NCBI GenBank assembly: GCA_964568815.1
Contig: CAZMRY010000001.1
Span: forward strand, 14,055-78,054
Length of the DNA: 64,000 nt
DNA from: an uncultured Eubacteriales bacterium
Lineage (GTDB): Bacteria > Bacillota > Clostridia > RGIG6154
Direction: 5' to 3'
Shown one piece after another: positions 20,925 to 39,860 of the stretch. How positions within the stretch are numbered: the stretch's first letter is position 1; each line of letters begins with the position of its first letter. The notes under the pieces were generated by a model that ran no database searches, was not told the origin of the DNA, and worked only from the letters and a program-made list of their open reading frames with translations. The translations under genes were made by a program, and so were the position numbers.

Positions 20925-21205
20925 ATTTAAACGCTGAGATGCGGAATAGTACGCAAAACACTTTCGCCTTGAGAGAGGTGCCGGTTGCTGCGAGGCATTG
21001 GGAAAGATTTGCAGAACTCACCGCGGAGCGGTTGCCGTGAACTAACAGTAGGGGCAAACGGGAACTCCCGTTACAGAGTTAAGATGTGTTAGCATCTAAG
21101 GTGCATTCTGAGCGAATGAAGAAGAGTGGTACCGCGGAAACGAAATTATAGCGTTTTCGTCTCTTTGAACCAACAGAGAGATGAAAGCGCTTTTTTGTTG
21201 GTTAT
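20925..21205 (+). promoter_or_regulatory. T-box riboswitch leader
   Basis: Conserved T-box sequence GAGTGGTACCGCGG at 21124-21137. The stem I elements cttGAGAGAGgtgccggttgctgcgaggca are shared with leader 2. An imperfect terminator (gcgttttcgtctctttg...caacagagagatgaaagcgc plus TTTTTT) ends at about 21200. Confidence 0.8.
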
Positions 21206-21239
21206 AGATATTACCTGTTATTTGAAAGGAGTTTTTAAA

Positions 21240-22628
21240 ATGAACAAAATTAACATTACAGACATTACCCTTAAAAAGCTTTCAGCAGAGCGTGAAGTAG
21301 CGCTTCTTTTCCGTGAAAAAACAGCAATTGCTGTTTGCGCTGATAAGCTTGGTGCAGATGCAATAGAGCTTGCTCCTGTGAAAAATCTTCGTGAAGATAC
21401 TATTATTTACAAAACTATTGCTCAAAATGTTGAAAATGCAACCGTTGCCATTCCTGTAGGCTTTAGTGCAGAGGAAGTTGCTGCAGCCTGGGAATGTGTC
21501 AAAGATGCTAAAAAACCTCGTCTTCAGATTGAGGTTCCTGTATCTACAGTTCAGATGGAATATACTTATCACATTAAAGCAGAAAAGATGCTTACCAAAA
21601 TTGGTGAACTTACAAAGTCTGCAAAAGATTTATGCAATGATGTAGAATTTTCTGCCCTTGATGCAACAAGAGCGGACATTGATTTTCTTATCAGTGCTGT
21701 AAAAGAAGCTGAGGCCAATGGTGCAAGCATTGTTACAATCTGCGATGACGCAGGTGCATCTCTCCCCGATTCTATTGCATCATTAGTTGAAAAAGTAAAA
21801 TCAGAAGTAAATATTCCTGTATATGTTCAGGTTTCTGATCGCATCAACATGGGTGTTGCATCAGCTATAGCATCTGTGCAGAAAGGTGCAGACGGTCTTA
21901 AATGTGCAATGGCAGGAAAAGATATTCTTTTAACAGGAGAAATTTCCGATGCAATTAAAGTATGTTTTGCAGAAACAGGTATTGAAACAAACCTCAACAC
22001 CACAAAAATTCACGCAAGCATTGATGAAATGCTTAGCCATATTAACCATGAAGCATACGAAAATGAAAACTCAGTAAGTGAAAAGAAAAAAATTCTTCTT
22101 GATGCTGACAGCACAATCGTTCAGGTTGCACAAGCTGCACAGGTTTTAGGTTACGAGCTTTCAGATTCAGATATTGGAAATGTTCATAAAGCACTTATTC
22201 GGATATGCCAGAAAAAAGATGCTGTCGGAGCAAAAGAACTTGAGGCTTTAATCGCAAGCTCTGCTATGCAGGCTCCTTCAACATATCATTTTGAAAGCTA
22301 TACAACAACAAGCAGTAATCTTACAAGCTCAATGTCACAGGTAACTTTAAAATGCAATGATGAAATTATTTGCGGTGTAAGTGCAGGTGACGGTCCTGTT
22401 GACTCCGCTTTCCGTGCTATCGAACAATGCATAGGACATCACTACGAGCTTGATGATTTCCAGGTTCAGTCTGTAACTGAAGGAAAAGAAGCTTTGGGTT
22501 CTGCAGTTGTAAGACTCAGAAATAATGGTAAGCTTTATTCAGGCAACGGTATTTCAACAGACATCGTTGCAGCAAGCATAAGAGCTTATGTAAACGCTCT
22601 TAACAAAATAGTATTTGAGGAGGCATAA
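21240..22628 (+). CDS. 2-isopropylmalate synthase homologue (LeuA/HMGL-like fold) with substituted catalytic motifs
   Basis: Collinear with LeuA: AAWECVKDAKKPRLQ vs AAWEAVKDAKNPRIH, and LCNDVEFSALDATR vs LCDDVEFSAEDATR. DTTLRDGEQ is replaced by TDITLKKLSAE, and the HxH metal site by QVS. The SD-supported start is 21240 (AAAGGAG+9), whereas the ORF track starts at 21126 inside the T-box terminator. Confidence 0.7.
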   Translation: MNKINITDITLKKLSAEREVALLFREKTAIAVCADKLGADAIELAPVKNLREDTIIYKTIAQNVENATVAIPVGFSAEEVAAAWECVKDAKKPRLQIEVPVSTVQMEYTYHIKAEKMLTKIGELTKSAKDLCNDVEFSALDATRADIDFLISAVKEAEANGASIVTICDDAGASLPDSIASLVEKVKSEVNIPVYVQVSDRINMGVASAIASVQKGADGLKCAMAGKDILLTGEISDAIKVCFAETGIETNLNTTKIHASIDEMLSHINHEAYENENSVSEKKKILLDADSTIVQVAQAAQVLGYELSDSDIGNVHKALIRICQKKDAVGAKELEALIASSAMQAPSTYHFESYTTTSSNLTSSMSQVTLKCNDEIICGVSAGDGPVDSAFRAIEQCIGHHYELDDFQVQSVTEGKEALGSAVVRLRNNGKLYSGNGISTDIVAASIRAYVNALNKIVFEEA

Positions 22629-22629
22629 A

Positions 22630-25089
22630 ATGAAAATTGTATTTTCAACCAAGAATGTAAATCGTGCATCTTTCCTTGATATATGCCGCTATGCTTACGA
22701 TTACGGATTTGAAGGCTTTGAAATACACGATGCAATAAAAGAACGCGGTCAGCATCACGACAGTATTTTGCGTCGTGACCGCACATCAGATGCTAAAAGA
22801 AAGCTTATAAACCGTAAACTTTCAGTTCCTGCACTTCGCATGCCTTATCCTGTTGAAAGTGCGGAAACTACATCAGAAATACTTGTAAAATATGTTGATA
22901 TGGCTGCAAATGCCGGAATCAGCAATATTATAGTGCGTGTAGAAGAAGAAACATCTTTTGATATATTAAACGAAAAGCTTGCAGATGCAGTTAAAGCAGC
23001 TGAAAAATCAGATGTTGGAATTTTATTTGAAACAGTTGGTTTTCTTTCAGACACAGAAAATGTTATAAAAATTATCAACCACTTCTCCTCTGCTGCAATC
23101 GGTGCATCATGGAATGTCAGAGGAACATATTTTGGTGCAGGTGAAACTGCAGAAACAACAATCAAAACACTTGGTGCATACATCAAATATGTCCGCCTTG
23201 GTGATATGAAAGACGGGAAAACAGTTTTAATCGGCGAAGGCGAACTTCCTGTTGAAAACTTAATCAATGCCCTTTCTTCACTTAACTTTGACGGATTTAT
23301 CTGTGCTGCATGGAATGAAGATATAAATGATGCGGATATTGTTTTAACACACTTTGCAAACTACATTTCTTCTCTTAAAAGAGAAAAGAAAACATATGAC
23401 CGTGCATATTACAACCGTTCAAAAACAGGTACTTATGTATGGAAAAAATATGATGTAATCGATGCAACTTTCTCTGATGTTCTTGACACTATGGTAGAGA
23501 ATTATCCTGACCAGTATGCATTTAAGTATCCTACCCTTGATTACACAAGAACCTATGAACAATTCCGTCGTGATGTTGACGAATGTGCTGCTGCACTCAT
23601 ATCACTCGGTGTAAAAGCAGGCGACCATGTTGCTGTATGGGCAACTAATGTTCCTGAATGGTACATTACTTTCTGGGCTACTACAAAAATCGGTGCTGTT
23701 CTTGTTACAGTAAATACTGCATACAAAATCCATGAAATAGAATATCTGTTAAAACAGTCAGACACTCATACTCTTGTTATGATTGAATACTGTAAGGATA
23801 TTAACTACAAAGAAATAATTCAGGAGCTCTGTCCTGAACTTGAAAATCTTACACCAGGTGAACCTCTCTATTCAAAAAATCTCCCATTCCTTCGCAATGT
23901 TGTAACAGCAGGCTTTTCAATGAATGGATGTCTCACATGGGAGCAGATGCTTTCGCGTTCTGCTTTAGTACCTCGTGAAGAAGTAAGAAGAAGAGCTTCA
24001 CTTGTTAAGCCTGACGATGTTTGCAATATGCAGTACACATCAGGTACAACAGGCTTTCCTAAAGGCGTTATGCTTACACATCGCAATATTGTAAATAACG
24101 GTAAAACTATCGGCGACAGAATGGATTTATCTACAGCTGACCGCATGATGATTCAGGTTCCTATGTTCCACTGTTTCGGCATGGTACTTTCTATGACCTC
24201 TATGATGACTCACGGCGGAACTCTCTGCCCTATCCCATATTTTTCACCGAAATCATCGCTCGCTTGCGTGAATGACGAAAAAATCACCTGTTTTAACGGT
24301 GTTCCTACTATGTTTATTGCTATGTTTAATCATCCTGATTTTGCAAAAACTGATTTCTCATATATGCGCACAGGTATTATGGCAGGTGCAAACTGCCCTG
24401 CTGACTTAATGCGTCGTGCTGCAGATGAAATGAATATGAAAGAAATTATATCTGTTTACGGTCAGACAGAGGCATCACCAGGATGCACAATGGGTGAAGT
24501 AAATGAAGACATCGACCATCGTGTTGAAACTGTTGGCAGTCCGTTTCCTGGTGTTGAATGTAAAGTTATTGACCCTGAAACAGGCGAAGAGCTTCCTGAT
24601 GGAGAGAGCGGTGAGTTTGTAGCCCGTGGCTTTAACATAATGAAAGGCTATTACAAAATGCCTGAAGCAACAGCACAGGCGATTGATGCTGACGGTTGGC
24701 TTCATTCAGGTGATATCTGTTGCAGAACTCCTGATGGTTATTACAAAGTAACAGGCAGACTTAAAGATATGATTATCCGTGGCGGTGAAAACCTCTATCC
24801 TCGTGAAATTGAAGAATTTTATCTGACAAATCCTAAGGTAAGAGATGTTCAGGTAGTTGGTGTACCTGATGAAAAATATGGTGAAGAATGTTGTGCATGG
24901 ATTATTCTTCACAAGGGTGAAACTGCTGACGAAAACGAAATGAAAGAATTTGGCAACGCATCAATTGCAAGACACAAGGTTCCTAAGTATTTCTTATTCG
25001 TTAAGGAATTCCCTATGAACGCTGCAGGTAAAATTTTAAAATATAAAATGCGTGACGAATCAACAGAAATTTTAGGTCTTAAAAAATAA
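22630..25089 (+). CDS. fusion protein: xylose-isomerase-like TIM-barrel domain plus AMP-dependent acyl-CoA synthetase/ligase (ANL superfamily)
   Basis: The N-terminal ~270 aa look like a sugar-phosphate isomerase/epimerase TIM barrel. The C-terminal part carries the AMP-binding motif YTSGTTGFPKGVMLTHRN and core motifs GQTE and GWLHSGD. The start ATG at 22630 sits after GGAGG and directly follows the upstream TAA at 22626-22628. Confidence 0.8.
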   Translation: MKIVFSTKNVNRASFLDICRYAYDYGFEGFEIHDAIKERGQHHDSILRRDRTSDAKRKLINRKLSVPALRMPYPVESAETTSEILVKYVDMAANAGISNIIVRVEEETSFDILNEKLADAVKAAEKSDVGILFETVGFLSDTENVIKIINHFSSAAIGASWNVRGTYFGAGETAETTIKTLGAYIKYVRLGDMKDGKTVLIGEGELPVENLINALSSLNFDGFICAAWNEDINDADIVLTHFANYISSLKREKKTYDRAYYNRSKTGTYVWKKYDVIDATFSDVLDTMVENYPDQYAFKYPTLDYTRTYEQFRRDVDECAAALISLGVKAGDHVAVWATNVPEWYITFWATTKIGAVLVTVNTAYKIHEIEYLLKQSDTHTLVMIEYCKDINYKEIIQELCPELENLTPGEPLYSKNLPFLRNVVTAGFSMNGCLTWEQMLSRSALVPREEVRRRASLVKPDDVCNMQYTSGTTGFPKGVMLTHRNIVNNGKTIGDRMDLSTADRMMIQVPMFHCFGMVLSMTSMMTHGGTLCPIPYFSPKSSLACVNDEKITCFNGVPTMFIAMFNHPDFAKTDFSYMRTGIMAGANCPADLMRRAADEMNMKEIISVYGQTEASPGCTMGEVNEDIDHRVETVGSPFPGVECKVIDPETGEELPDGESGEFVARGFNIMKGYYKMPEATAQAIDADGWLHSGDICCRTPDGYYKVTGRLKDMIIRGGENLYPREIEEFYLTNPKVRDVQVVGVPDEKYGEECCAWIILHKGETADENEMKEFGNASIARHKVPKYFLFVKEFPMNAAGKILKYKMRDESTEILGLKK

Positions 25090-25101: not shown

Positions 25102-25130
25102 TTGACAATTCAAAAGAACCGTTGTATAAT
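25102..25130 (+). promoter_or_regulatory. consensus sigmaA promoter for T-box leader 2
   Basis: TTGACA (25102-25107), a 17-nt spacer, then TATAAT (25125-25130). Confidence 0.7.
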
Positions 25131-25134
25131 AATC

Positions 25135-25420
25135 ACAAATTTGAATATCACAAAGAACGACTATGACGAAGACGGTCGGATTGTGAAGCCCTGAGAGAGT
25201 TGCCGGTTGGTGCGAGGCAAAGGTGAATCTTTCCAATGACCTATCACTTCTGAGTCGGAGGACCGAAAGGCAAAGCTGAGTAGACTCCTTCCGTAATGCT
25301 GCGTAAAAGCAAAGGACTTGATAGAGTCCGTAAAGTGACGGAATTTTTTCCGTAATTTGAGTGGTACCGCGGGTATAATAACTCGTCTCAAAAGAAATCT
25401 TTTTGAGACGGGTTTTTTGT
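25135..25420 (+). promoter_or_regulatory. T-box riboswitch leader
   Basis: TTTGAGTGGTACCGCGGG T-box sequence at about 25357-25374. The terminator cgtctcaaaag(aaatc)cttttgagacg plus GGTTTTTT spans 25384-25418. Stem I shares ccctGAGAGAGttgccggttggtgcgaggca with leader 1. Confidence 0.8.
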
Positions 25421-25463
25421 TTTATTCAAACCGTATCAACGGAAATGAAAGGAGACAAAAGAA

Positions 25464-27761
25464 ATGGATTACAATTTAAAAGAAGTTGCAGGAAGAATCA
25501 GAGACCTCAGAGAAGCAAAAGGCTATACACCTGATGAGCTTGCTAAGCTTACTGGCGTAACTGTTGAGGATTACAAAATTCTTGAAGAAGGCGAAACTGA
25601 TTTCAGCTTCACTTTTATCTACAAGTGTGCAAAAGCTTGTGGTGTTGAAGTAGTTGATATTTTAGAGGGAACAAGTTCAACTCTTACATCATTTGCTATC
25701 ACAAGAAAAGGCGAAGGTCTTAAAATTATCAAAAAGCAAGGTGTTGTTTACAACAACTTAGCTCCTAAATTCAAAGATAAGCTTGCTGAACCTTTCCTTG
25801 TTAAATTCCCCTACCTTGCAGAAGAACAGAACGCTCCTATAAAGCTTAATTCTCATAACGGACAGGAATTTGATGTTATCGTTAAAGGATCACTTAAGGT
25901 TCAGGTTGGAAACCATGTAGATATACTCAACGAAGGCGATTCTATTTTCTATAACAGTATCATCCCCCACGGTATGATTGCAGTTAGTGAAGGAGGATGT
26001 GAATTCCACGCTGTTGTACTCAACCCACAGGATGGTCAGGTAAGTGAAGAATATCCTGAAGCTCCGTTTATTGCTGCAAAAGCTGCAGTTGTTCAGAACA
26101 AAACTGAAACAGTTGCAGATAAATTTATTGAATCATCCTATGATGAAAATGGTGTATTTAACGGAATTACATTCAAAAATGAAGATAAATTCAACTTTGC
26201 ATTCGACTGTGTTGATGCAATCGCTGAAAAGAATCCTGATAAACTTGCAATGATGTGGGTCGCAAATGACAAAACTGACCGAAAGTTTACTTTCGGCGAT
26301 ATGAAAAAATATTCTGCAAAAACTGCAAACTATTTTGAATCACTTGGTATCAAAAAAGGCGATACAGTAATGCTCGTTTTAAAGAGACATTATCAGTTCT
26401 GGTTCTGTATGCTTGCACTTCATAAAATCGGTGCTATTGCAATCCCTGCAACAAACCAGCTTGTTGAACACGATTTCACATACAGATATAAGGCTGCAAA
26501 GGTTAAAGCTATAGTTTGCACAGCGGATGGTGATGTTTCAACAGAAGCAGAAAAGGCTGCATCTGAGTTCCCTGGAATGATAAAAGTTCTTGTTGGCGGA
26601 GAAAAAGAAGGCTGGAACAACTTCAATGTTGAAATGGAAAGATTCAGCACACACTACTTCCGTAATGAAAACACTCCTTGCGGTGACGACCCGATGCTTA
26701 TGCTCTTTACTTCAGGAACAACAGGATATCCTCGTATTGCAACACATTCTTATAAATATGCATTAGGACATTATCCTACAGCTAAACACTGGCATAATGT
26801 TAACCCTGACGGACTTCACTTTACAATTTCAGACACAGGCTGGGGTAAAGCTCTCTGGGGCAAACTCTATGGACAATGGCTTTGCGAAGCAGCACAATTC
26901 ACATACGACTTTGACCGTTTCCATTCAGAAGATATTTTGCCAATGTTTGCAAAATACAATATCACAACATTCTGTGCTCCACCGACAATGTACAGATTCT
27001 TTATCAAAGAAGATTTATCACAATATGACCTTTCATCAATTGAGTATGCAACAACAGCAGGTGAAGCACTTAATCCTGAAGTATTTAACCAGTTCAAAAA
27101 AGCTACAGGGCTTACAATTATGGAAGGCTTTGGACAGACAGAAACAACACTTTCTATCGCAAACTTTGTTGGTACTACACCAAAAATCGGTTCAATGGGC
27201 AGACCAAGTCCACTTTATGATGTAGTAGTTTTAGATCCTGACGGAAAGGAATGTAAAACAGGTGATGCAGGTGAAATCTGTATCCGTACAAAAGAAGGTA
27301 CACCTTGCGGTCTCTTTATCGGCTATTACTTAGACGATGAGAAAACAAAGGAAGTATGGCACGACGGATACTACCACACAGGCGACCAGGCTACAATGGA
27401 CGAAGACGGATATCTCTGGTATGTGGGAAGAATTGATGATGTTATCAAATCATCAGGCTACCGTATCGGACCTTTTGAAATTGAAAGTGTTATTATGGAA
27501 CTTCCTTATGTTCTTGAATGTGCAATCACTCCTGTTCCAGATGAAGTTCGCGGACAGATTGTAAAGGCCACAATCGTACTCACAAAGGGTAATGAAGGCA
27601 CAGACGAGCTTAAAAAGGAAATTCAGGAATATGTTAAGACACATACAGCACCTTACAAATACCCAAGAATTGTTGAATTCGTTGACGAACTTCCAAAAAC
27701 AATCAGCGGTAAAGTAAGAAGAGTTGAAATCCGTAACAAAGACCTTGAGAAAAACAAATAA
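25464..27761 (+). CDS. fusion protein: XRE-type HTH plus cupin sensor domain (PuuR-like) fused to AMP-dependent acyl-CoA synthetase/ligase
   Basis: N-terminal HTH (LREAKGYTPDELAKLTGVTVEDYKILEEGE) followed by a cupin (GDSIFYNSIIPHGM). The ANL domain then carries FTSGTTGYPR, GQTE, YYHTGDQ and a C-terminal PKTISGKVRR. It is a continuous 765-aa ORF. Confidence 0.8.
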   Translation: MDYNLKEVAGRIRDLREAKGYTPDELAKLTGVTVEDYKILEEGETDFSFTFIYKCAKACGVEVVDILEGTSSTLTSFAITRKGEGLKIIKKQGVVYNNLAPKFKDKLAEPFLVKFPYLAEEQNAPIKLNSHNGQEFDVIVKGSLKVQVGNHVDILNEGDSIFYNSIIPHGMIAVSEGGCEFHAVVLNPQDGQVSEEYPEAPFIAAKAAVVQNKTETVADKFIESSYDENGVFNGITFKNEDKFNFAFDCVDAIAEKNPDKLAMMWVANDKTDRKFTFGDMKKYSAKTANYFESLGIKKGDTVMLVLKRHYQFWFCMLALHKIGAIAIPATNQLVEHDFTYRYKAAKVKAIVCTADGDVSTEAEKAASEFPGMIKVLVGGEKEGWNNFNVEMERFSTHYFRNENTPCGDDPMLMLFTSGTTGYPRIATHSYKYALGHYPTAKHWHNVNPDGLHFTISDTGWGKALWGKLYGQWLCEAAQFTYDFDRFHSEDILPMFAKYNITTFCAPPTMYRFFIKEDLSQYDLSSIEYATTAGEALNPEVFNQFKKATGLTIMEGFGQTETTLSIANFVGTTPKIGSMGRPSPLYDVVVLDPDGKECKTGDAGEICIRTKEGTPCGLFIGYYLDDEKTKEVWHDGYYHTGDQATMDEDGYLWYVGRIDDVIKSSGYRIGPFEIESVIMELPYVLECAITPVPDEVRGQIVKATIVLTKGNEGTDELKKEIQEYVKTHTAPYKYPRIVEFVDELPKTISGKVRRVEIRNKDLEKNK

Positions 27762-27769
27762 ACAATTTA

Positions 27770-27795
27770 AACCCGAGCAAACGCTCGGGTTTAAT
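27770..27795 (+). terminator. rho-independent terminator after the ligase operon
   Basis: aacccgagc(aaac)gctcgggtt then taatgtt. Confidence 0.5.
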
Positions 27796-28451: not shown

Positions 28452-28850
28452 CTAAAAATACTTCTTGCTATTCATCAAACACTGAATATTGTTTAATGTT
28501 TCACCAAAGCGTTGGAAGTGAATTACTTCACGCTGGCGGAGGAATTTAAGTGGTTCTAATACATCGTAGTCATCGCAGAGATCCATTAAATATTCGTAGG
28601 TTGCTCTTGCCTTTTGTTCTGCAGCCATATTTTCGGATAGATCGGTTATTGGGTCTGAGGTTACCTGAAGTGTTGCCGCAGAAAACGGATCGCCTGACGC
28701 AGACATTGGATATGCTCCGATACCATGGTCTACATAGGCATCTCCGTATGCGTTTTTGATTTGTTCCCTTGTTGCGCCCTTTAATAGCTGTCTTACCATT
28801 GTGCAAACAATTTCTTGATGTGCCAGTTCTTCCGTACCTACATCGTGTAT
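28452..28850 (-). CDS. manganese catalase / CotJC-like protein, 3' (C-terminal) segment of a split gene
   Basis: ...GTEELAHQEIVCTMV...GDPFSAATLQVTSDPITDLSENMAAEQKARATYEYLMDLCDDYDVLEPLKFLRQREVIHFQRFGE matches the CotJC/Mn-catalase family. Codons upstream of DVGTEE within ORF 28452..28928 are element-derived and not genuine. Confidence 0.8.
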   Translation of the reverse strand: MHDVGTEELAHQEIVCTMVRQLLKGATREQIKNAYGDAYVDHGIGAYPMSASGDPFSAATLQVTSDPITDLSENMAAEQKARATYEYLMDLCDDYDVLEPLKFLRQREVIHFQRFGETLNNIQCLMNSKKYF

Positions 28851-29082
28851 ATAATGCTCCTTTATATGAAAATGCCCTGAAACTCGCTCAAATACAGGTG
28901 TTTGAGCGTTGCCTGAAATATGGGACATGCCCTGAGTATGTAAGAAAAATCAAGGCAAAAGAACCTGAAATGATAGTAAATGTAAAGCTATCTGTAAATT
29001 GAAAATTAATTCAGACCAATTTGGGCGGAATTTAATTAGTCCCAATTTGGGACACATTTTTTTGCAGTATAAGAGGAACTAA

Positions 29083-29326: not shown

Positions 29327-29527
29327 ATGGCAGTTACTTATAATAAATTGTGGCATCTTCTGCTTGACAGAGGTATGAAGAAAAAAGAGTTGCAGGAAAT
29401 GGCAGAGCTTACAAGCCATACAATGCTTAAACTTCGCAATAATCAGGATATTTCACTTGAAGCTATGCTGAAGATTTGTAAGTGCTTGGAATGCAATATG
29501 GAAGATATTATGGATGTAATCGAATAG
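29327..29527 (+). CDS. small XRE/Cro-type HTH protein, likely controller (C) protein of the R-M system
   Basis: 66 aa with KKELQEMAELTSHTMLKLRNNQDISLEAMLKICKCL as the HTH, and SD GGATGAATAAGAATG. It sits immediately upstream of hsdR. Confidence 0.6.
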   Translation: MAVTYNKLWHLLLDRGMKKKELQEMAELTSHTMLKLRNNQDISLEAMLKICKCLECNMEDIMDVIE

Positions 29528-29545
29528 TACGAAAGGAGGGGGCTT

Positions 29546-32071
29546 ATGAAAGCAAAAGAAGCTAAAGCTCGTTTGAAAATAAACAAACTACTCGAAGAAA
29601 CTGGTTGGCGTTTCTTTGACGATGAAAATGGAGCCGCAAATATTCAGGTTGAGCCGAATGTAAAAATAACAAAAACACAAATAGATTCATTAGGTGAAGA
29701 TTTTAATACAGTAAAAAACGGATTTGTAGATTTCTTGTTACTTGATGATAACGGAAAACCATTCGTAGTTCTTGAAGCTAAATCAGAAGATAAAGACCCA
29801 CTTGTAGGTAAAGAACAAGCAAGAGAATATGCAAAATCGTTGTATGTTAAATATGTAATTTTATCAAATGGAAATCAGCATTATTTTTGGAATATTACAA
29901 AAGGAAATCCTCAGATTATAACTGCTTTCCCGAGTTATGAGAGCTTAAAAGAAAGTAAGGCATTTACTGCCGATTCATCAAAATTGTATAAAGAAGAAAT
30001 CAGGAGCGACTATATAGCGGTCATTAAAAATCCTAATTATGAAGAAGCTCCCGAATATAAGAACGAAGAAACGAGACAGAAATTTATATTTGATAGCGGA
30101 TTGCGTTTTTTGAGACCCTATCAGGTTAATGCTTTGAAGAAATTACAAGCTTCTGTAAAAGACGGAAATCAACGATTCTTATTTGAAATGGCAACAGGCA
30201 CAGGAAAAACACTTACATCTGCTGCGGTTATCAGATTATTTTTAAGAAGCGGTAATGCAAATAGGGTTTTGTTTCTTGTTGATAGAATCGAACTTGAAAA
30301 TCAGGCAAAAAAGAATTTTCAAAACTATCTTTCCCCTGACTATCAAACAGTAATTTTTAAAGAGAATAAGGATGATTGGCGTAAGGCTGAAATTGTTGTT
30401 TCTACTGTGCAGACGCTTGTGGCAAACAATAAATATAAAAGATTTTTCAAGCCTACTGATTTTTCTTTGATTATAGCAGATGAAAGCCATCGCTCAATTA
30501 ACGGAAACAGCAGAGCAGTATTTGAATATTTCTTAGGATATAAGTTAGGACTTACAGCTACTCCGAAGGACTATATAAAAAATGTAGATATTGAAAAAAT
30601 GAAAAGTACAGACCCACGAGCTTGGGAAAAAAGACAGCTTCTTGACAGTTACAAAACTTTTGGATGTGAAAGCGGAGAGCCGACATTCAGATATTCGTTG
30701 CTTGACGGTGTTCGTGACGGTTATTTAATCAATCCTACAGTTGTTGATGCAAGAACTGAAATTACGACCAAACTGTTGGCAGAAGAAGGTTATGCGTTTA
30801 TAACAACAGGTGATGAGCAAGACGAAGAACAGGAAGAAACATTTTTCGCAAGAGATTTTGAACGTAAATTCTTTTCTGAAACTACCAATAAGGTTTTTGT
30901 AAAAACATTTATGGATAACGCATTAAGAGACCCAATAACAGGCGAAATCGGTAAGGGTATTATTTTCTGCGTAAGTCGCAGACACGCTGCAAAAATCACA
31001 CAGTTACTCAATGAATATGCAGATAAAATGTTTCCGGGCAAGTATTGTTCGGACTTTGCTATGCAGATAACATCAGATGTTATGAATGCACAGACTTATA
31101 CAACTAATTTCCAAAATAACAATTTAAGCGGTACTACTGTATTTTTGGATGGTTACAAATCGTCAAAAACAAGAATATGCGTAACAGTCGGTATGATGAC
31201 AACCGGATATGATTGTGAAGATTTGCTCAATATAGGCTTGTTAAGACCAATATTTTCGCCTACCGATTTTATTCAGATAAAAGGCAGGGGTACAAGAAAA
31301 GCAACTTTTGTTTATAGAGAAAAAATCAACGGAATTATTGAAGAACGCAAAGAAGAAAAAACTACCTTTAAGCTCTTTGATTTCTTTGGTAACTGTGAAT
31401 ATTTTGAAGAAAAATATAACTATGATGAAGTCATAAAGCTTCCGAGAACGCATACATCAGGTAATGGGACAGAGCTTCCAACACAATCTGAAGATTATGA
31501 GAATTTTAACCCTGACCCATTGGCTTCTATGACGGAAACAGCGATTGGGATTGAAGGTATGAAGATTGACAGAATGTTCTTCGATAAATTTGAAGAAACT
31601 GTCAAGGATGACCCGATTGCAAAGGAACAGTATGAGCAAGGCAATTATCAGGCTGTTATCAGCTATATAGATGAAAACATAATGAATAAGCCTAATGAAT
31701 ATTATACTTGGGACAAGCTGCGCAGAGCGATTGGAAGCGACAGACGAATCACTGCAAGAGAAATTCTTGATAAGATATTTGGTGTTTTGCCATTCTTTAA
31801 AAGTAAGAAACAGCTTGTTGATGATGAATTTGAGTCATTTATGCTTACAAGCAAAGTTCCGCAGGAAAAATATTGGGATATAAAGCATTTCTTTGAAACA
31901 TACATAACAGACAAAGATGTAAGACGGGCGATTGAGGACGGGACTTACCAGCTTTTGGGTACAGAAATCAGCACATATACAATGTCCGATTTGAAAAAGC
32001 TCGGTAAGGACTCAATGTTGCACATCGTAGATTATGTTAATGACAATGTGAATGTTTCAAGATTTATGTAG
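29546..32071 (+). CDS. hsdR: Type I restriction enzyme R subunit-like protein (PD-(D/E)xK nuclease N-domain plus SF2 DEAH helicase)
   Basis: N-terminal HsdR_N-type nuclease motif (VDFLLLDDNGKPFVVLEAK), Walker A MATGTGKTLT, DESH box IIADESHRS, and motif VI QIKGRGTR. At 841 aa it is shorter than canonical HsdR. Confidence 0.7.
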   Translation: MKAKEAKARLKINKLLEETGWRFFDDENGAANIQVEPNVKITKTQIDSLGEDFNTVKNGFVDFLLLDDNGKPFVVLEAKSEDKDPLVGKEQAREYAKSLYVKYVILSNGNQHYFWNITKGNPQIITAFPSYESLKESKAFTADSSKLYKEEIRSDYIAVIKNPNYEEAPEYKNEETRQKFIFDSGLRFLRPYQVNALKKLQASVKDGNQRFLFEMATGTGKTLTSAAVIRLFLRSGNANRVLFLVDRIELENQAKKNFQNYLSPDYQTVIFKENKDDWRKAEIVVSTVQTLVANNKYKRFFKPTDFSLIIADESHRSINGNSRAVFEYFLGYKLGLTATPKDYIKNVDIEKMKSTDPRAWEKRQLLDSYKTFGCESGEPTFRYSLLDGVRDGYLINPTVVDARTEITTKLLAEEGYAFITTGDEQDEEQEETFFARDFERKFFSETTNKVFVKTFMDNALRDPITGEIGKGIIFCVSRRHAAKITQLLNEYADKMFPGKYCSDFAMQITSDVMNAQTYTTNFQNNNLSGTTVFLDGYKSSKTRICVTVGMMTTGYDCEDLLNIGLLRPIFSPTDFIQIKGRGTRKATFVYREKINGIIEERKEEKTTFKLFDFFGNCEYFEEKYNYDEVIKLPRTHTSGNGTELPTQSEDYENFNPDPLASMTETAIGIEGMKIDRMFFDKFEETVKDDPIAKEQYEQGNYQAVISYIDENIMNKPNEYYTWDKLRRAIGSDRRITAREILDKIFGVLPFFKSKKQLVDDEFESFMLTSKVPQEKYWDIKHFFETYITDKDVRRAIEDGTYQLLGTEISTYTMSDLKKLGKDSMLHIVDYVNDNVNVSRFM

Positions 32072-32080
32072 GAGGAAGCT

Positions 32081-34600
32081 ATGTTAAAGTTTGATGTAAA
32101 AAGAAAAATCAATACCTTGCGGGATATTTTGGTTGGCAAAGTACCTGACCCGAAGGCACAGGTTGAACAAATTACCATTGCAATGATTTATAAATTTATG
32201 GATGATATGGATATTGAAGCAATGGAATTTGGTGGTGAACGTGTATTCTTTAAAGGCGAATACGAAAAATATGCGTGGTCAAATCTTATGAGTCCTGAAA
32301 ATAGCGGACAGAAAAGAGCAATGATTTATGCTGAGGGTATTGAAAAAATGGTAATGAATCAGAATATACCCCAGCTATTCAGAGATATATTCAGAGGTGC
32401 ATATATACCATACAGAGACCCCGAAACTCTTAATATGTTTTTAAAAGAAATCAGCGATTTTTCTTATGATAACAGCGAGGATTTGGGGAATGCCTTTGAG
32501 TATTTGCTTTTAATAATGGGTAGTCAGGGCGATGCAGGGCAGTTCAGAACACCGAGACACATTATTGATATGATGGTTGAAATTGTTGACCCGAAGAAAA
32601 ATGATACAATTCTTGATCCGGCGTGCGGAACAGCAGGATTTTTGATAAGTGCTTATAAGCATATCAAAAATACAAATGTGGACGAGAACGGAAATTCAAC
32701 CCTGACACCTGATGACAGAAGACGATTAACCGATAATTTTGCAGGATATGATATTTCTCCCGATATGGTTAGATTATCAAGAGTTAATATGTATTTACAC
32801 AATTTTACTAAACCTAACATAAGTGAATACGATACTCTTACAAGCGAGGAAAAATGGGATGATAATTATGATGTGATTCTTGCAAATCCTCCGTTTATGA
32901 CACCAAAAGGCGGTATTATGCCTCATAGACGATATATCACAGAAGCAAAACGCTCAGAAGTGTTATTTGTAGATTATATTGTTCAGCATTTGAATACAAA
33001 CGGAAAGGCTGCCATTATTGTTCCTGAAGGTATAGTTTTTCAGTCACAGTCTGCATATAAAAAGATTCGCCAAATACTTGTAGATGATGATTTTCTTTAT
33101 GGTGTTATTTCCTTGCCTGCCGGAGTTTTTAACCCTTATAGTGGTGTAAAAACAAGCATTTTGTTAATTGACAAAACACTAGCAAAGCAGAAAGATGATA
33201 TTCTTTTTATTAAAATGAATAATGATGGATTTGATTTAGGGGCACAACGCAGAGAAATAAAGAAAAATGATATTCCTGACATTGTTAATATCGTTAAGGC
33301 ATATCAAGAGAGTGAAGATGTCAGCGACAATCCGATTGTTACTTTGGCTGATAAGAAAAGGATTTGCGAGCAGGATTATATCCTTGTTGGAGAACGATAT
33401 AAACAAGATAGAATGATTGATAGCAAGTGGGAAATGGTCAAATTAGGCGACTTGTGTGATTTGCAAAATGGTTATGCATTTAAATCTTCTGATTATATTG
33501 ATTGCTCAAACACTTTAAATTTTAGAATGAGTAATATTAGACCGGATGGAAACGTGGATTTAGAATATGCAAAAAAACATCTTCCAAATGAGTATGCTGA
33601 AAAATTTCCAGAATATATCTTGTCATCAGGGGATGTTGTAATAGCGATGACCGATATGGCTAATGACCCCCAAATATTAGGAGTTCCAACTATTATCCCA
33701 GAACATTATGGTACATTACTTTTGAATCAGCGTGTAGGTAAATTCATAAATATCAATTGTGAAAAGTTGTATGTGCCATTTTTAAAACATGTACTTAATT
33801 GTGATACGGTGAAAAATTATTATAAATCACTCAGTGGCGGAGGATTGCAAATTAATTTAAGCAAAAAAGACTTATTACAACTACAAATTCCTGTTCCTCC
33901 ACTATCAATTCAGAGAGAAATTGTTGATGAAATAGAAAGTTATCAAAAAATTATTGACGGTGCAAGGCAAATTGTGAATAATTATAAGCCAACTATCAAG
34001 ATTAACCCTGAATGGGAAAATGTTGAAATTGGAAGTATGTATGATATTAGTTATGGTGTTACCATTTCTATTCCGCAAAATGAAGATGAAAACGGAATCA
34101 AAATTATATCTACTGCTGAGGTTGGTTTAGATGGACAGCTTGATTTGTCAAATATAAGAAAAGTACATTACGATAAAAAGTATGAAAAATTTGTTTTAGA
34201 GCCTGATACATTGCTATTTAATTGGAGAAATGCTCCAAAACACGTTGGTAAAACAGCTTGGTTTTTACAGGAGGACGATAAATATATAAGTGCCTCATTC
34301 TTGTTATCGTTGAAAAATAAAAATCCTAAATGTTACGATAATGGGTTTGTGTGGTGTGCTTTAAACAACCTTCGTGAAACCGGTTATTTTATGAGAAATG
34401 CAAGACAGGCTGTAAATCAAACGAATTTCAACGGGGACCAGCTTTCAAAAACAAAAATAGCTATACCAAATATAGAGGAACAACAGCATATTATGAAAGG
34501 CATATATGAGGAAATGGTTATTGTTGAAAAAAATAAGAGGTTGATTGAAATTTTTGAACAAAAAATAAAGGATAAAATTTCAGAAGTTTGGGGTGATTAA
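32081..34600 (+). CDS. fused Type I R-M methyltransferase-specificity protein (HsdM N-6 adenine MTase domain plus two HsdS-like target-recognition domains)
   Basis: SAM-binding motif I LDPACGTAGFL and motif IV VILANPPF. C-terminal tandem TRD-like segments (KLGDLCDLQNGYAFKS... and VEIGSMYDISYGVTIS...) each show HsdS conserved spacing. 839 aa. Confidence 0.75.
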   Translation: MLKFDVKRKINTLRDILVGKVPDPKAQVEQITIAMIYKFMDDMDIEAMEFGGERVFFKGEYEKYAWSNLMSPENSGQKRAMIYAEGIEKMVMNQNIPQLFRDIFRGAYIPYRDPETLNMFLKEISDFSYDNSEDLGNAFEYLLLIMGSQGDAGQFRTPRHIIDMMVEIVDPKKNDTILDPACGTAGFLISAYKHIKNTNVDENGNSTLTPDDRRRLTDNFAGYDISPDMVRLSRVNMYLHNFTKPNISEYDTLTSEEKWDDNYDVILANPPFMTPKGGIMPHRRYITEAKRSEVLFVDYIVQHLNTNGKAAIIVPEGIVFQSQSAYKKIRQILVDDDFLYGVISLPAGVFNPYSGVKTSILLIDKTLAKQKDDILFIKMNNDGFDLGAQRREIKKNDIPDIVNIVKAYQESEDVSDNPIVTLADKKRICEQDYILVGERYKQDRMIDSKWEMVKLGDLCDLQNGYAFKSSDYIDCSNTLNFRMSNIRPDGNVDLEYAKKHLPNEYAEKFPEYILSSGDVVIAMTDMANDPQILGVPTIIPEHYGTLLLNQRVGKFININCEKLYVPFLKHVLNCDTVKNYYKSLSGGGLQINLSKKDLLQLQIPVPPLSIQREIVDEIESYQKIIDGARQIVNNYKPTIKINPEWENVEIGSMYDISYGVTISIPQNEDENGIKIISTAEVGLDGQLDLSNIRKVHYDKKYEKFVLEPDTLLFNWRNAPKHVGKTAWFLQEDDKYISASFLLSLKNKNPKCYDNGFVWCALNNLRETGYFMRNARQAVNQTNFNGDQLSKTKIAIPNIEEQQHIMKGIYEEMVIVEKNKRLIEIFEQKIKDKISEVWGD

Positions 34601-35789
34601 TTTGGGAGCTGATGAGATCCGCAAAAATCTTGGCGAAGCATTATCTATATTTGCAAAAACAGTAGAAAATGTAACAAATTCAATGGATGTAGAAGCAACA
34701 GTAGCGTACAGAGATTTTGTAGATGATTTGATGTCATATTTTCCAATGACCAAAGTAAATACTCAAGCAGGTACTTATGACCAATACCTACAAGATTTAA
34801 GAAAAACTGTTGTCGATAATTATGATAAAAATAATTATCAGGTAGCATATTTTTATGCCCACTTGATTTTTATGAGTTATATTTATTACTCGGTTGAATT
34901 AGCTTATAGATTTTTGCCGCAAAAGACAAAAGACCAATACGATATGATAAATGCTTATAGTGGAAATAATAAACCTAATATCGCAGACACTCCCAATGTT
35001 TATTCGTTCAGTAAAATACCCGAAAAAGAAATTTTTAAAGTGTTTTATGCTATTGGCATGGATGTGCAATACATTCAACAGCTTTCATCGTATGTTAAGG
35101 AACGTGATGACTATGCACATGCTACGGGAAAAGGAAATATAGATGATGATGCTTTTAAAACTAACATTAAAACTGTAAAAAGAAATATGGGTACAGTTCA
35201 TAAATTGTTTCAACCATACATCAAAGATAAATATATTGCTTTTTTAATAGATAAGTGTGAATTGTCTCACGAAACAGTTGAAATGGCAATTTCTGATTAT
35301 ATTGTTGATGAAAATTTTTCATATCAGGATATTGATTACCTATGTAATTTAGGAATTAGCAATATAAGAAACGAAAACGATATATTTAAAAGTAAATATA
35401 GTTTGGTAAGAAAAGTTCATTGTGCTTTTATTGAACATTGCATAGAAACTTATGGTATTTCCGAGCCAACCAATTTAGGTAATCTAAGAAACGATACATA
35501 TTTATATTTTAAATACAAAGACAATGCAGAGAAATACATTGAAAGAGAACTCGGAATAAATGGCTACGAATGTGTTAAAAACGGCGGAGAGTTCCCATTG
35601 TATGAGTGTCCTGAATGTGGCGAGGAGCAGTTGGCTCACAATGTAGAAAACGGCAAATTCCATTGTTTTCATTGTGATGAGGATTACACTTCTGAAACAT
35701 TGACATTTTGTTCTCGTTGCGGAGCATTGACAGGAAAAAATGAAATGGATATATGTAAAAACTGTATTGAGGATATGGTGGAAGAATAA
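34593..35789 (+). CDS. hypothetical protein with C-terminal tandem Zn-ribbons, translationally coupled to the R-M methyltransferase gene
   Basis: The start overlaps the hsdMS stop by 8 nt. The C-terminus reads YECPECGEEQLAHNVENGKFHCFHCDEDYTSETLTFCSRCGALTGKNEMDICKNCIE, four CxxC pairs. There is no recognisable catalytic motif in 398 aa. Confidence 0.5.
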   Translation: MINLGADEIRKNLGEALSIFAKTVENVTNSMDVEATVAYRDFVDDLMSYFPMTKVNTQAGTYDQYLQDLRKTVVDNYDKNNYQVAYFYAHLIFMSYIYYSVELAYRFLPQKTKDQYDMINAYSGNNKPNIADTPNVYSFSKIPEKEIFKVFYAIGMDVQYIQQLSSYVKERDDYAHATGKGNIDDDAFKTNIKTVKRNMGTVHKLFQPYIKDKYIAFLIDKCELSHETVEMAISDYIVDENFSYQDIDYLCNLGISNIRNENDIFKSKYSLVRKVHCAFIEHCIETYGISEPTNLGNLRNDTYLYFKYKDNAEKYIERELGINGYECVKNGGEFPLYECPECGEEQLAHNVENGKFHCFHCDEDYTSETLTFCSRCGALTGKNEMDICKNCIEDMVEE

Positions 35790-35790
35790 C

Positions 35791-35829
35791 AAAAAATCTG
35801 CATCTCTATTAAAGAAATGCAGATTTTTT
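35791..35829. terminator. bidirectional terminator between convergent genes
   Basis: aaatctgcat(ctctattaaaga)atgcagattt with T/A runs on both sides. Confidence 0.55.
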
Positions 35830-37139: not shown

Positions 37140-37319
37140 ATATACCTCCTATATCATTACAATGTTACAATGTTATTATATCATCACAATGATAGTTTGT
37201 CAATCCTTTTAATAAAATTTTTATGTCAGGTCAGATTTTGGTATGCAATGTGCTTTAATAGAAGTAGCATAGTACAAGCGATGATTTGCATAAAATGTCA
37301 GGAGGGGCGGTGTTGTTTG

Positions 37320-37493: not shown

Positions 37494-37548
37494 TTTTTTG
37501 CAAGTCTTTATATTATGCGATAAAATTTAGAGGAAAGGAGATGATGAA

Positions 37549-39833: not shown

Positions 39834-39860
39834 AGAGGAGCATTTCCGCTCCTCTGTTTT
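39834..39860. terminator. bidirectional rho-independent terminator
   Basis: agaggagc(atttcc)gctcctct is an 8-bp perfect stem with a T-run on the plus strand and an A-run upstream. It abuts the giant gene's stop codon. Confidence 0.65.

What the first reader, a model, noticed from the sequence alone, without database searches (positions are those of the whole stretch)
25464..27761. HTH-cupin transcription-factor module fused to an acyl-CoA ligase (BirA-like logic)
The first ~190 aa are a complete PuuR-type one-component regulator, comprising an XRE HTH and a cupin ligand pocket. They are fused to a medium-chain-type acyl-CoA synthetase. Like BirA, an adenylating enzyme with its own DNA-binding domain could couple substrate availability to repression of its own or other operons. 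Here this sits on top of T-box control.
Basis: partly seen in the sequence, partly recalled or inferred. Interest (0 to 1): 0.5.

Follow-up and report, generated by a model that had tools for sequence, protein, structure and literature searches.

The report
Isoleucine-controlled acid-CoA ligase with sensor domain
This gene is a real and widely conserved fusion in gut bacteria: an enzyme that probably activates a branched short-chain acid for isoleucine synthesis, joined to a regulator-like domain that looks more like a small-molecule sensor than a DNA binder.

Summary
ORF 25464..27761 encodes 765 aa: HTH_3, Cupin_2, a disordered linker of about 25-45 aa, then a complete acyl-CoA ligase. The gene has its own consensus promoter, an Ile (AUC) T-box and terminators on both sides.

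The fusion is not an artefact. It occurs in at least 584 species genomes and 572 metagenome contigs. In distant loci, 111 of 116 N-domain ORFs are fused; one lineage carries two adjacent genes.

The ligase is 56% identical to M. acetivorans Macs, which prefers 2-methylbutyrate. Relatives sit behind Ile or Val T-boxes, often as Ile-then-Val tandem pairs beside 2-oxoacid:ferredoxin oxidoreductase and aminotransferase genes. This fits branched acid to acyl-CoA to 2-oxoacid to amino acid.

The BirA-like repressor reading is not supported:
- The HTH is acidic, with mean net charge -7.
- The base-contact positions are Asp/Glu in about 88% of members.
- Helix 3 is the most variable part of the domain.
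- No conserved palindromic operator was found.

The module matches the enzyme HppE as well as it matches XRE-cupin regulators. It keeps an invariant His-Glu-His triad. N-domain type tracks the T-box amino acid (61% identity within type, 47% between), while the ligase does not (72% against 70%).

Best reading: a domain descended from a transcription factor, now an Ile/Val-specific ligand sensor that controls the ligase. That last step is inferred.

The parts
25102..25130 (+). Sigma-70-type promoter, TTGACA-17 nt-TATAAT, matching 12 of 12 consensus positions
   Evidence: Both hexamers are conserved in 70 related loci, while the spacer between them is not.
25137..25151 (+). Conserved 15-nt element AAATTTGAATATCAC between the -10 and T-box stem I. 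It contains the 8-bp palindrome CAAATTTG. Its function is unexplained.
   Evidence: 97-99% conserved in 70 loci. No second copy in the window at up to 3 mismatches beyond chance. A looser AATT[TC][GC]A[AT] motif recurs in distant leaders of both types.
25154..25393 (+). T-box leader RNA
   Evidence: Rfam RF00230, 93.4 bits against a gathering score of 93, covering the full model 1-219. Conserved across 70 loci.
25243..25245 (+). Specifier codon AUC (isoleucine), followed by the conserved purine A
   Evidence: Read from the cmscan alignment. Each of the three columns is at least 90% conserved. AUC is also found in 49 typed distant relatives.
25380..25414 (+). T-box terminator hairpin with a T-run. 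Its 5' half overlaps the antiterminator/T-box sequence.
25450..25454 (+). Ribosome-binding site AGGAG
   Evidence: Read directly from the sequence. Conserved.
25464..27761 (+). CDS of 765 aa: N-terminal HTH-like plus cupin module fused to an acyl-CoA ligase
25464..25673 (+). aa 1-70: five-helix XRE/HTH_3-like alpha domain with an acidic surface. Helices 4-5 are conserved; helix 3 is variable.
   Evidence: Pfam. AF2 helices 5-19, 23-30, 34-41, 49-59 and 63-68. Charge and residue statistics.
25719..26021 (+). aa 86-186: cupin beta-barrel with invariant H131, E135 and H169, plus D137, D159, S165 and C179
26028..26168 (+). aa 189-235: poorly conserved linker of variable length. aa 189-212 have pLDDT below 50.
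26217..27713 (+). aa 252-750: acyl-CoA ligase, comprising AMP-binding and AMP-binding_C. Core motifs are intact: FTSGTTGYPR, GFGQTE, YHTGD, GRIDDVIKSSGYRI and PKTISGK.
   Evidence: 56% identical to MacsMa, PDB 3ETC.
27767..27794 (.). GC-rich hairpin just after the stop codon, likely a transcription terminator. The gene is therefore monocistronic.
20927..25089 (+). Neighbouring unit, given as context. It holds a Leu (CUC) T-box at 20927..21167, a leuA-like gene at 21240..22628, and an AP_endonuc_2::acyl-CoA ligase fusion at 22615..25089.
   Evidence: The same pair lies upstream of the fusion gene in about 15 of 80 close loci.

Best explanation
The gene encodes a branched short-chain acid:CoA ligase, most likely acting on 2-methylbutyrate. 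It is transcribed from its own promoter and read through only when tRNA-Ile is uncharged (AUC T-box). The acyl-CoA it makes would feed reductive carboxylation by a 2-oxoacid:ferredoxin oxidoreductase, then transamination to isoleucine. That pathway step is inferred from the gene neighbourhoods of relatives.

The N-terminal 190 aa descend from an XRE-cupin one-component regulator. They no longer look like a DNA reader. They form an HppE-like alpha-plus-cupin module with an invariant His-Glu-His site, tethered to the ligase by a flexible linker. The module's sequence type matches the amino acid named by the T-box (Ile or Val).

The most likely role is a ligand sensor specific for Ile/Val, or for the matching acid or 2-oxoacid. 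It would control the ligase after translation, for example by end-product feedback, on top of the slower T-box control.

Shown here: the architecture, its conservation, T-box specificity, gene context, the link between domain type and specifier, and the atypical HTH. Inferred: the ligase substrate, the identity of the ligand, metal binding, and any effect on catalysis.
For: Ligase and pathway:
- The ligase matches MacsMa (PDB 3ETC) at E = 5.9e-204 and 56% identity over 522 aa. MacsMa prefers 2-methylbutyrate (PMC10455477).
- The best NCBIfam model is MbcS.
- The catalytic motifs and the Trp259 equivalent (W443) are intact.
- The specifier is AUC.
- Across distant relatives, 49 T-boxes read Ile and about 40 read Val. 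At least 17 loci carry an Ile-then-Val tandem pair.
- Oxidoreductase genes lie in the flanks of 22 of 89 distant loci. Aminotransferase genes are also present.

N-domain as a specific, non-DNA-binding module:
- Invariant residues across 96 members include H131, E135, H169, D137, D159, S165 and C179.
- A family profile aligns to HppE over positions 9-183, and the triad falls on HppE's metal-site motifs.
- N-domain identity is 61% within a T-box type and 47% between types. The ligase gives 71.6% and 69.5%.
- Thirteen positions are type-specific. They lie in helices 4-5 and the cupin strands; none lies in helix 3.
- In L088 the two tandem paralogs have identical ligase DNA but N-domains only about 55% identical, and they carry Ile and Val T-boxes.
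- The split lineage shows the module can work as a separate polypeptide encoded next to the ligase gene.
- Paralogs with a dead ligase P-loop still keep the triad.
- An XRE-cupin pocket can hold an amino acid: 1Y9Q was solved with D-methionine bound (PMC7901475).
Against: - No ligand, metal or allosteric effect has been shown. AF2 gives no confident contact between the N-domain and the ligase (disordered linker, pTM 0.70).
- The N-domain scores above the Pfam HTH_3 cutoff, so a residual nucleic-acid function is possible.
- A highly conserved 15-nt element at the transcription start is unexplained.
- One solved XRE regulator, 6jq1, also has a net negative HTH of -3, so charge alone does not decide the matter.
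- The Ile/Val typing reflects two old paralog lineages. Part of the N-domain divergence could be relaxed constraint rather than specificity.
- The 100% identical ligase segment in L088 could be a metagenome assembly artefact.
- No oxidoreductase gene lies within this 64-kb window.
Confidence: 0.5

Rival explanations
1. BirA-like trigger enzyme. The N-terminal XRE-cupin module binds an operator at its own promoter or at other promoters as a dimer. Ligand occupancy of the cupin or the ligase tunes repression, adding transcriptional control to the T-box.
For: - The HTH_3 and Cupin_2 architecture is that of XRE-cupin local repressors of neighbouring metabolic genes (PMC7901475).
- The split form has a 192-aa XRE-cupin-sized gene directly upstream of the ligase gene. 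That is the layout expected of a local regulator that later fused.
- A 15-nt element containing the palindrome CAAATTTG sits at the transcription start and is 97-99% conserved.
- Paralogs with degenerate ligase motifs retain the N-domain, so it has a non-catalytic role.
Against: - Positions equivalent to 434 repressor Q29 and S30 are Asp/Glu in 84/96 and 86/96 members. The mean HTH net charge is -7.2.
- The stand-alone form is the most acidic, at -11.
- Helix 3 is the most variable segment within each type, with entropy 1.40 against 0.70 for helix 4. It carries none of the 13 type-specific positions.
- Seventy distant promoters share no palindrome.
- The proposed operator stretch 25420-25463 and the left arm of the inverted repeat are not conserved.
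- The 15-mer has no other copy in the window.
Confidence: 0.2
2. The N-domain is a second catalytic domain: a metal-dependent cupin enzyme acting on the ligase's substrate or product. Candidate activities are hydrolytic proofreading of wrongly activated acyl-adenylate or acyl-CoA, or epimerisation at C2 of 2-methylbutyryl-CoA.
For: - The His-Glu-His triad and several nearby polar residues are invariant.
- The closest two-domain structural relative is an enzyme, HppE.
- Related ligases carry other metal-enzyme folds. These are AP_endonuc_2 in the adjacent gene and in L087, and what reads by eye as a VOC/glyoxalase-type C-terminal extension in P0129 (no domain search was run on it).
- MacsMa forms acyl-AMP with many acids but completes the reaction only with 2-methylbutyrate (PMC10455477), so a specificity filter is plausible.
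Against: - Val-type members act on an acid without a stereocentre yet keep the domain, which argues against an epimerase.
- No known cupin family with such an activity matched by sequence.
- Metal triads also occur in purely ligand-binding cupins.
Confidence: 0.15
3. The N-domain is mainly a structural module. It would oligomerise the ligase, or dock it to a partner such as the oxidoreductase or ferredoxin through its acidic surface, with no small-molecule role.
For: - HppE uses its alpha domain for tetramer assembly (PMC9088020).
- The acidic surface could pair with basic partners.
- Oxidoreductase genes are often adjacent.
Against: An invariant buried triad and pocket residues, together with type-specific cupin positions that track Ile or Val, are hard to explain without a specific ligand.
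Confidence: 0.1

Closest known systems
MacsMa (M. acetivorans medium-chain acyl-CoA synthetase, PDB 3ETC) and S. aureus MbcS
   Same: The ligase part belongs to the same ANL-superfamily clade. It is 56% identical to MacsMa over 522 aa, has all core motifs and keeps the alternative pocket Trp. MbcS is the best NCBIfam model. Both reference enzymes activate 2-methylbutyrate or isobutyrate (PMC10455477, PMC10026030).
   Different: Those enzymes have no N-terminal HTH-cupin module and are not described as T-box controlled. MbcS feeds branched fatty-acid synthesis. Here the Ile/Val T-boxes and the oxidoreductase and aminotransferase neighbours point to amino-acid synthesis. The MbcS equivalog cutoff is not reached (453 bits against 850).
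XRE-cupin transcription factors (PuuR, ErfA, PauR, PsdR; structure 1Y9Q)
   Same: Same two-domain order and size. The stand-alone split form is 192 aa. The HTH_3 and Cupin_2 matches pass the Pfam cutoffs. The cupin is a small-molecule pocket, and 1Y9Q was solved with D-Met bound.
   Different: Known members bind palindromic operators as dimers and repress neighbouring genes. Here the reading head is acidic and variable, no operator was found, and the module is covalently joined to an enzyme.
HppE (hydroxypropylphosphonate epoxidase)
   Different: Identity is only 21-24%. There is no phosphonate gene context. HppE stands alone as a tetramer and is not fused to a ligase.
Trigger enzymes with a built-in DNA-binding domain (BirA, NadR, PutA), cited from general knowledge
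   Same: An enzyme and a regulator-type domain share one polypeptide. In BirA the enzyme is an adenylate-forming one.
   Different: In those proteins DNA binding is demonstrated and operators are known. Here every sequence test for a DNA-reading function came out negative or inconclusive.
End-product sensor domains on first pathway enzymes (LeuA C-terminal regulatory domain, ACT domains of IlvA and AHAS), cited from general knowledge
   Same: This is the proposed working analogy. An amino-acid-specific sensor is attached to the committing enzyme of a branched-chain amino-acid route, combined with transcriptional attenuation.
   Different: The fold differs (XRE plus cupin), and feedback binding is unproven here.

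Membership tests
ANL-superfamily acyl-CoA synthetase, Macs/MbcS clade | AMP-binding and AMP-binding_C domains | tested here: met
   PF00501 at 196.8 bits and PF13193 at 78.5 bits.
ANL-superfamily acyl-CoA synthetase, Macs/MbcS clade | Core motifs: A3 P-loop, A5, A7 YxxGD, A8 hinge, A10 catalytic Lys | tested here: met
   FTSGTTGYPR, GFGQTE, YHTGD, GRIDDVIKSSGYRI and PKTISGK are all present.
ANL-superfamily acyl-CoA synthetase, Macs/MbcS clade | Alternative pocket Trp (MacsMa Trp259) | tested here: met
   W443 aligns with the Trp in MacsMa's KYWQNV and is invariant in 96 sequences. Its role is described in PMC10455477.
ANL-superfamily acyl-CoA synthetase, Macs/MbcS clade | NCBIfam MbcS equivalog score of at least 850 bits | tested here: not met
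   453.4 bits. The protein is a relative of MbcS, not an equivalog.
ANL-superfamily acyl-CoA synthetase, Macs/MbcS clade | Activity on 2-methylbutyrate or isobutyrate | not testable with these tools
   Inferred from homology and the Ile T-box only.
T-box riboswitch | Covariance-model match at or above the Rfam gathering score | tested here: met
   93.4 bits against 93, covering the full-length model. The margin is narrow, but the leader is conserved in 70 loci.
T-box riboswitch | Specifier codon in the stem I loop followed by a purine, plus a terminator overlapping the T-box sequence | tested here: met
   AUC-A at 25243-25246 and the terminator at 25380-25414.
XRE-cupin transcription factors | HTH_3 followed by Cupin_2 within about 190 aa | tested here: met
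   The stand-alone 192-aa form appears in L153, L159 and L161.
XRE-cupin transcription factors | Palindromic operator at the promoter of the same gene or a neighbouring gene | tested here: inconclusive
   No palindrome is shared among 70 distant promoters. The local inverted repeat is not conserved. One conserved 15-mer containing an 8-bp palindrome remains unexplained.
XRE-cupin transcription factors | Conserved polar or basic DNA-reading residues on helix 3 | tested here: not met
   Asp/Glu at the positions equivalent to 434 repressor Q29 and S30 in 84/96 and 86/96 members. Helix 3 is the most variable segment within each type.
XRE-cupin transcription factors | Demonstrated DNA binding and repression | not testable with these tools
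   Needs EMSA, DAP-seq or a reporter assay.
HppE-like alpha-plus-cupin metalloenzymes | Helical XRE-like domain plus a cupin with a 2-His-1-Glu triad | tested here: met
HppE-like alpha-plus-cupin metalloenzymes | Phosphonate biosynthesis context and epoxidase activity | tested here: not met
   No phosphonate genes lie in the window or in related loci.
Trigger enzymes (BirA-like) | Enzyme and functional DNA-binding domain in one protein, with a known operator | tested here: inconclusive
   The architecture fits. The operator and reading-head tests were negative.

The most novel reading that the evidence does not exclude
A whole one-component transcription factor (XRE HTH plus cupin) has been taken over as an amino-acid-specific control or proofreading module for a rather unspecific branched-acid:CoA ligase. 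The identity of each paralog as 'Ile' or 'Val' would then be written twice, once in the T-box specifier codon and once in the N-domain pocket, and hardly at all in the catalytic domain. This would define a widespread gene set, previously unassigned, for making isoleucine and valine from fermentation acids in gut and rumen Firmicutes.
Probability: 0.35. Interest if true: 0.7.

Novelty: new variant of a known kind. Interest (0 to 1): 0.55.

Why it matters
Rumen and gut anaerobes have long been known, from classical physiology that I am recalling rather than citing, to need or use isobutyrate and 2-methylbutyrate to make valine and isoleucine. My literature searches found no functional study of this fusion, and none tying these ligases to T-box control.

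This family gives a concrete and very widespread candidate for the activation step. It is found in hundreds of species genomes and many metagenome contigs, and it is paired with oxidoreductase and aminotransferase genes.

It would also be a clear case of a transcription-factor module reused as an enzyme-attached sensor. The family offers natural test material: Ile/Val tandem pairs, a split two-gene form, and paralogs with dead ligase motifs.

If the N-domain does bind DNA after all, the protein would be a new trigger enzyme layered on a riboswitch.

Tried and rejected
- Inverted repeat ATTCAAA(25108)/TTTGAAT(25140) around the -10. Rejected as an operator because the left arm lies in the non-conserved spacer.
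It is poorly conserved in 70 loci.
- Search for further copies of the conserved 15-mer in the window. Only chance-level matches were found. Leader 1 shares only GAATATC, which overlaps its -10.
- Comparison by eye of the 15-mer with the CodY-box consensus, recalled from memory. About 7 of 15 positions match, which is not convincing.
- Net charge as the sole criterion. It was weakened by the control 6jq1, an XRE regulator at -3, so I relied on contact positions and variability instead.
- Oxidoreductase or aminotransferase genes in the window or in the 80 close loci. None was found; the linkage is seen only in more distant relatives.
- AFDB fold search. The library was not available.
- Literature searches for the fusion, and for T-box-controlled acyl-CoA ligases. 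No paper characterises it.
- My regex specifier typing mis-read 3 leaders (ATG, AAG, ATA) and left 7 unresolved. Several of the unresolved ones look like GUA.
- No PAE or coordinates were available, so pocket mapping and interdomain contacts could not be checked.
Full report
**1. Observation**

The ORF at 25464..27761 on the + strand is real and encodes 765 aa. Pfam finds HTH_3 at aa 12-64, Cupin_2 at aa 127-184, AMP-binding at aa 252-622 and AMP-binding_C at aa 672-750, all above their curated cutoffs. AlphaFold2 with a 96-sequence alignment gives mean pLDDT 86. The model has a five-helix domain (aa 5-68), a cupin barrel (aa 86-186), a disordered linker (aa 189-212, pLDDT below 50) and a well-predicted ligase.

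**2. Regulatory anatomy**

The gene is a monocistronic unit. Its elements, in order, are:
- a perfect TTGACA-17-TATAAT promoter at 25102..25130;
- a T-box leader at 25154..25393, scoring 93.4 bits against a gathering score of 93;
- a terminator at 25380..25414;
- an AGGAG ribosome-binding site, then the ATG;
- a GC-rich hairpin at 27767..27794, just after the stop codon.

In the cmscan alignment the specifier is AUC followed by A (25243-25246), which names isoleucine. The upstream T-box at 20927..21167 reads CUC (Leu). It controls a leuA-like gene and a second ligase fused to an AP_endonuc_2 TIM barrel.

An alignment of the 420 nt upstream of the gene from 70 related genomes shows which parts are conserved. 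The two promoter hexamers, the whole leader including the AUC specifier, and the ribosome-binding site are conserved. The -35/-10 spacer and the stretch 25420-25445 are not.

**3. The ligase**

The C-terminal 565 aa match PDB 3ETC at E = 5.9e-204, with 56% identity over 522 aligned residues. 3ETC is MacsMa, whose preferred substrate is 2-methylbutyrate and whose pocket depends on Trp259 (PMC10455477). That Trp is W443 here and is invariant in the family. The best NCBIfam model is the branched-acid ligase MbcS, though the score is below its equivalog cutoff. All core motifs, including the catalytic Lys, are intact.

**4. Is the fusion conserved?**

Yes, very widely.
- All 120 listed protein clusters at 87-93% identity share the architecture.
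- In a collection with one genome per species, 584 of 600 pattern hits encode a relative. The best 80 are full-length fusions at 88-93% identity, from ruminant and other gut Oscillospirales-type MAGs.
- At the 50%-identity cluster level, full-length fusions persist at 55% and 42% identity.
- A search seeded with the 42% relative lists 120 further clusters, all carrying at least Cupin_2 and the ligase domains and most also an HTH family, and all but one 753-772 aa long. Those that carry a source name are labelled Lachnospiraceae, Ruminococcaceae, Acutalibacteraceae, Solobacterium or simply Clostridia.
- A metagenome scan with N-domain patterns gave 572 confirmed hits.

In the 89 distant loci I hold, 111 of 116 ORF segments with the N-domain also carry the ligase. 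Two of the exceptions are cut by contig ends. The other three (L153, L159, L161; one lineage, three independent assemblies) have a true split. There, a 192-aa N-domain gene ends in TAA and is followed by a ribosome-binding site and the ATG of a stand-alone ligase. So fusion is the rule, and the split form shows the module can act as a separate polypeptide encoded next to the ligase gene.

**5. What the family does**

Among family genes with enough upstream sequence, 49 have an AUC (Ile) T-box and about 40 a GUA or GUC (Val) T-box. At least 17 loci carry an Ile-type gene followed by a Val-type gene, each with its own T-box.

Genes for four-subunit 2-oxoacid:ferredoxin oxidoreductases lie within the flanks of 22 of 89 distant loci. 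Aminotran_4 and Aminotran_1_2 genes also occur.

Together with the Macs/MbcS homology, this supports the following route: branched acid to acyl-CoA by this enzyme, then reductive carboxylation to the 2-oxoacid, then transamination to Ile or Val. The route is known from classical rumen physiology, which I am recalling rather than citing. The gene assignment here is an inference. No oxidoreductase gene lies in this window.

**6. Is the N-domain a DNA-binding regulator?**

I tested this in several ways.

(a) *Operator.*
- Seventy dereplicated distant promoters share no palindrome.
- One 15-mer at the transcription start, AAATTTGAATATCAC at 25137..25151, is 97-99% conserved in close relatives but has no other copy in the window. 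It remains unexplained.

(b) *Reading head.*
- I aligned helix 3 on the invariant Y37, E41 and G43. The positions matching 434 repressor Q29 and S30 (contact residues recalled from established structural knowledge) are then Asp/Glu in 84/96 and 86/96 members. The Q28 equivalent is Glu in 32/96. The loop residue 46 is Asp/Glu in 92/96.
- The mean net charge of aa 1-70 is -7.2, with a range of -15 to -1.
- Net charges computed by script from hand-copied aligned segments are +3, +1, +2 and -3 for four solved XRE regulators, -4 for the HppE alpha domain, -5 for the window protein and -11 for the split stand-alone protein.

(c) *Conservation pattern.*
- Within each T-box type, helices 2 and 3 are the most variable parts of the module (entropy 1.36 and 1.40 bits).
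- Helices 4-5 are the most conserved (0.70 and 0.74 bits).
- This is the opposite of what a conserved operator-reading surface would show.

(d) *Relatives.*
- The family profile aligns to the Fe(II) enzyme HppE over its full length (profile positions 9-183). This includes an alpha-domain segment, ETPETVAAWENGE, much like this family's helix 3.
- H131, E135 and H169 fall on HppE's GHAGNEF and VPHAF motifs.
- HppE is a tetrameric enzyme with an all-helical alpha domain and a cupin beta domain (PMC9088020).

**7. What the N-domain tracks**

Across 96 diverse members the cupin residues H131, G133, E135, D137, D159, S165, P168-H169-G170 and C179 are invariant. This holds even in five paralogs whose ligase P-loop is degenerate; three of those five have also lost the catalytic Lys.

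I then compared 36 Ile-typed and 32 Val-typed genes, plus the window protein.

| Domain | Identity within type | Identity between types |
|---|---|---|
| N-domain | 61.0% | 47.0% (never above 56%) |
| Ligase | 71.6% | 69.5% (up to 98%) |

Thirteen N-domain positions separate the two types with less than 10% overlap: 48, 50, 54, 63, 67, 91, 92, 94, 97, 111, 115, 121 and 184. None lies in helix 3. At most of these positions the window protein carries an Ile-type residue, major or minor, which fits its AUC T-box.

In every tandem pair the N-domains are much more diverged (47-58%) than the ligases (69-98%). In L088 the two genes are 100% identical in DNA from about nt 743 to 2120, which is the ligase. 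They are only 50-70% identical in the N-domain and linker, and they carry Ile and Val T-boxes. This is either recent gene conversion that spared the N-domains or an assembly artefact.

**8. Mechanism**

The supported part is a T-box(Ile)-gated branched-acid:CoA ligase serving isoleucine synthesis.

For the N-domain, the best-fitting reading is a module derived from a transcription factor that binds a ligand, and probably a metal. Its pocket would distinguish the Ile series from the Val series and control the ligase after translation. End-product feedback is the most economical guess. An XRE-cupin pocket can hold an amino acid, since 1Y9Q was solved with D-methionine bound (PMC7901475).

The rivals are a true BirA-like repressor, a second catalytic (proofreading or epimerase) domain, and a purely structural or docking role. 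They cannot be excluded computationally. My estimates are about 0.5 for the sensor reading, then 0.2, 0.15 and 0.1 for the rivals in that order.

**9. Comparison and novelty**

- The ligase is an ordinary member of the Macs/MbcS clade.
- The T-box is ordinary.
- The N-domain has the XRE-cupin architecture but fails the reading-head test. It resembles HppE in fold and triad but not in gene context.
- The architecture already sits in databases under generic names: 'AMP-binding protein', 'helix-turn-helix domain-containing protein' and 'acetyl-CoA synthetase'.
- I found no paper that characterises it.

I rate it a new variant of a known kind. The novel element is the coupling of T-box specifier and N-domain type, with little divergence in the catalytic domain.

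**10. Caveats**

- Specifier typing outside the window used regular expressions anchored on Rfam-verified examples. A few leaders were mis-typed or left unresolved.
- The Ile and Val types are old paralog lineages, so shared ancestry contributes to the identity contrast.
- I had no coordinates or PAE, so I did not check pocket location or interdomain contacts.
- Metal binding is inferred from motif alignment only.

Noticed in passing
window 22615..25089 (+), with 21240..22628 and T-box 20927..21167: A second unusual ligase fusion lies immediately upstream. It joins an AP_endonuc_2 (xylose-isomerase-like TIM barrel) domain to an acyl-CoA ligase. It is translationally coupled to a leuA-like gene, and both sit behind a Leu (CUC) T-box. 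In this genome, both of these BCAA-T-box-controlled ligases, the Leu one and the Ile one, carry an extra N-terminal domain of a metal-enzyme fold. The same fusion appears next to IlvE and a PFOR-like gene in L087.
   Followed up: partly
window 25137..25151: The 15-nt element AAATTTGAATATCAC, at or just after the transcription start, is 97-99% conserved in 70 species and is also present in L166. Looser AATT[TC][GC]A[AT] motifs sit at the same place in many distant Ile and Val leaders. It shares TATCAC with the specifier region. Its function is unknown; it could be the RNA 5' end, a site for another regulator, or an operator.
   Followed up: partly
L153 5000-7300, L159, L161: A natural split form. 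A 192-aa stand-alone HTH-cupin gene ends in TAA and is followed by a ribosome-binding site and the ATG of a separate 540-aa ligase. An Ile T-box lies upstream of the pair. Its HTH is the most acidic seen, at net -11.
   Followed up: yes
L088 2360-4627 and 5001-7298: Tandem Ile-type and Val-type paralogs have ligase-coding DNA that is 100% identical over about 1.4 kb. Their N-domains and linkers are only 50-70% identical. This is either gene conversion sparing the N-domain or a metagenome assembly artefact.
   Followed up: partly
L081 4493-6769 (P0126), L082 5001-7268 (P0273); also P0271, P0272, P0274: These paralogs have a degenerate ligase P-loop (QSYS...). Two have lost the motif III Asp and three the catalytic Lys. 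All retain the complete N-domain triad. In the two loci fetched (L081, L082), the degenerate paralog is the second gene after an intact, Ile-T-box-controlled paralog. They may be pseudo-enzyme partners or regulators.
   Followed up: partly
P0129, P0124, P0123: Close ligase relatives carry other extra domains instead of the HTH-cupin. By eye, these are a C-terminal VOC/glyoxalase-like domain in P0129, a C-terminal GNAT-like domain in P0124, and an unrelated 150-aa N-terminal extension in P0123. No domain search was run on any of them.
   Followed up: no
window 7753..12790 (-): A cluster on the - strand holds a glycyl-radical enzyme (PFL-like plus Gly_radical), its radical-SAM activase, UxuA mannonate dehydratase and a short-chain dehydrogenase. 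Sugar-isomerase-type and GFO/IDH/MocA oxidoreductase genes and a GH127 gene sit on the other side of the cluster, at lower coordinates (730..7759).
   Followed up: no
window 28452..28928 (-): A 158-aa ORF matches only positions 57-195 of the 284-position Mn-catalase profile. It is probably a truncated remnant.
   Followed up: no
window 29327..39174 and 39859..63889: A small HTH_26 gene and a type I restriction-modification system (R subunit, M-S fusion) occupy 29327..35789. They are followed by a serine recombinase and a prophage-like region with portal, capsid and amidase genes, which includes a 3246-aa ORF at 39859..49599 on the - strand.
   Followed up: no
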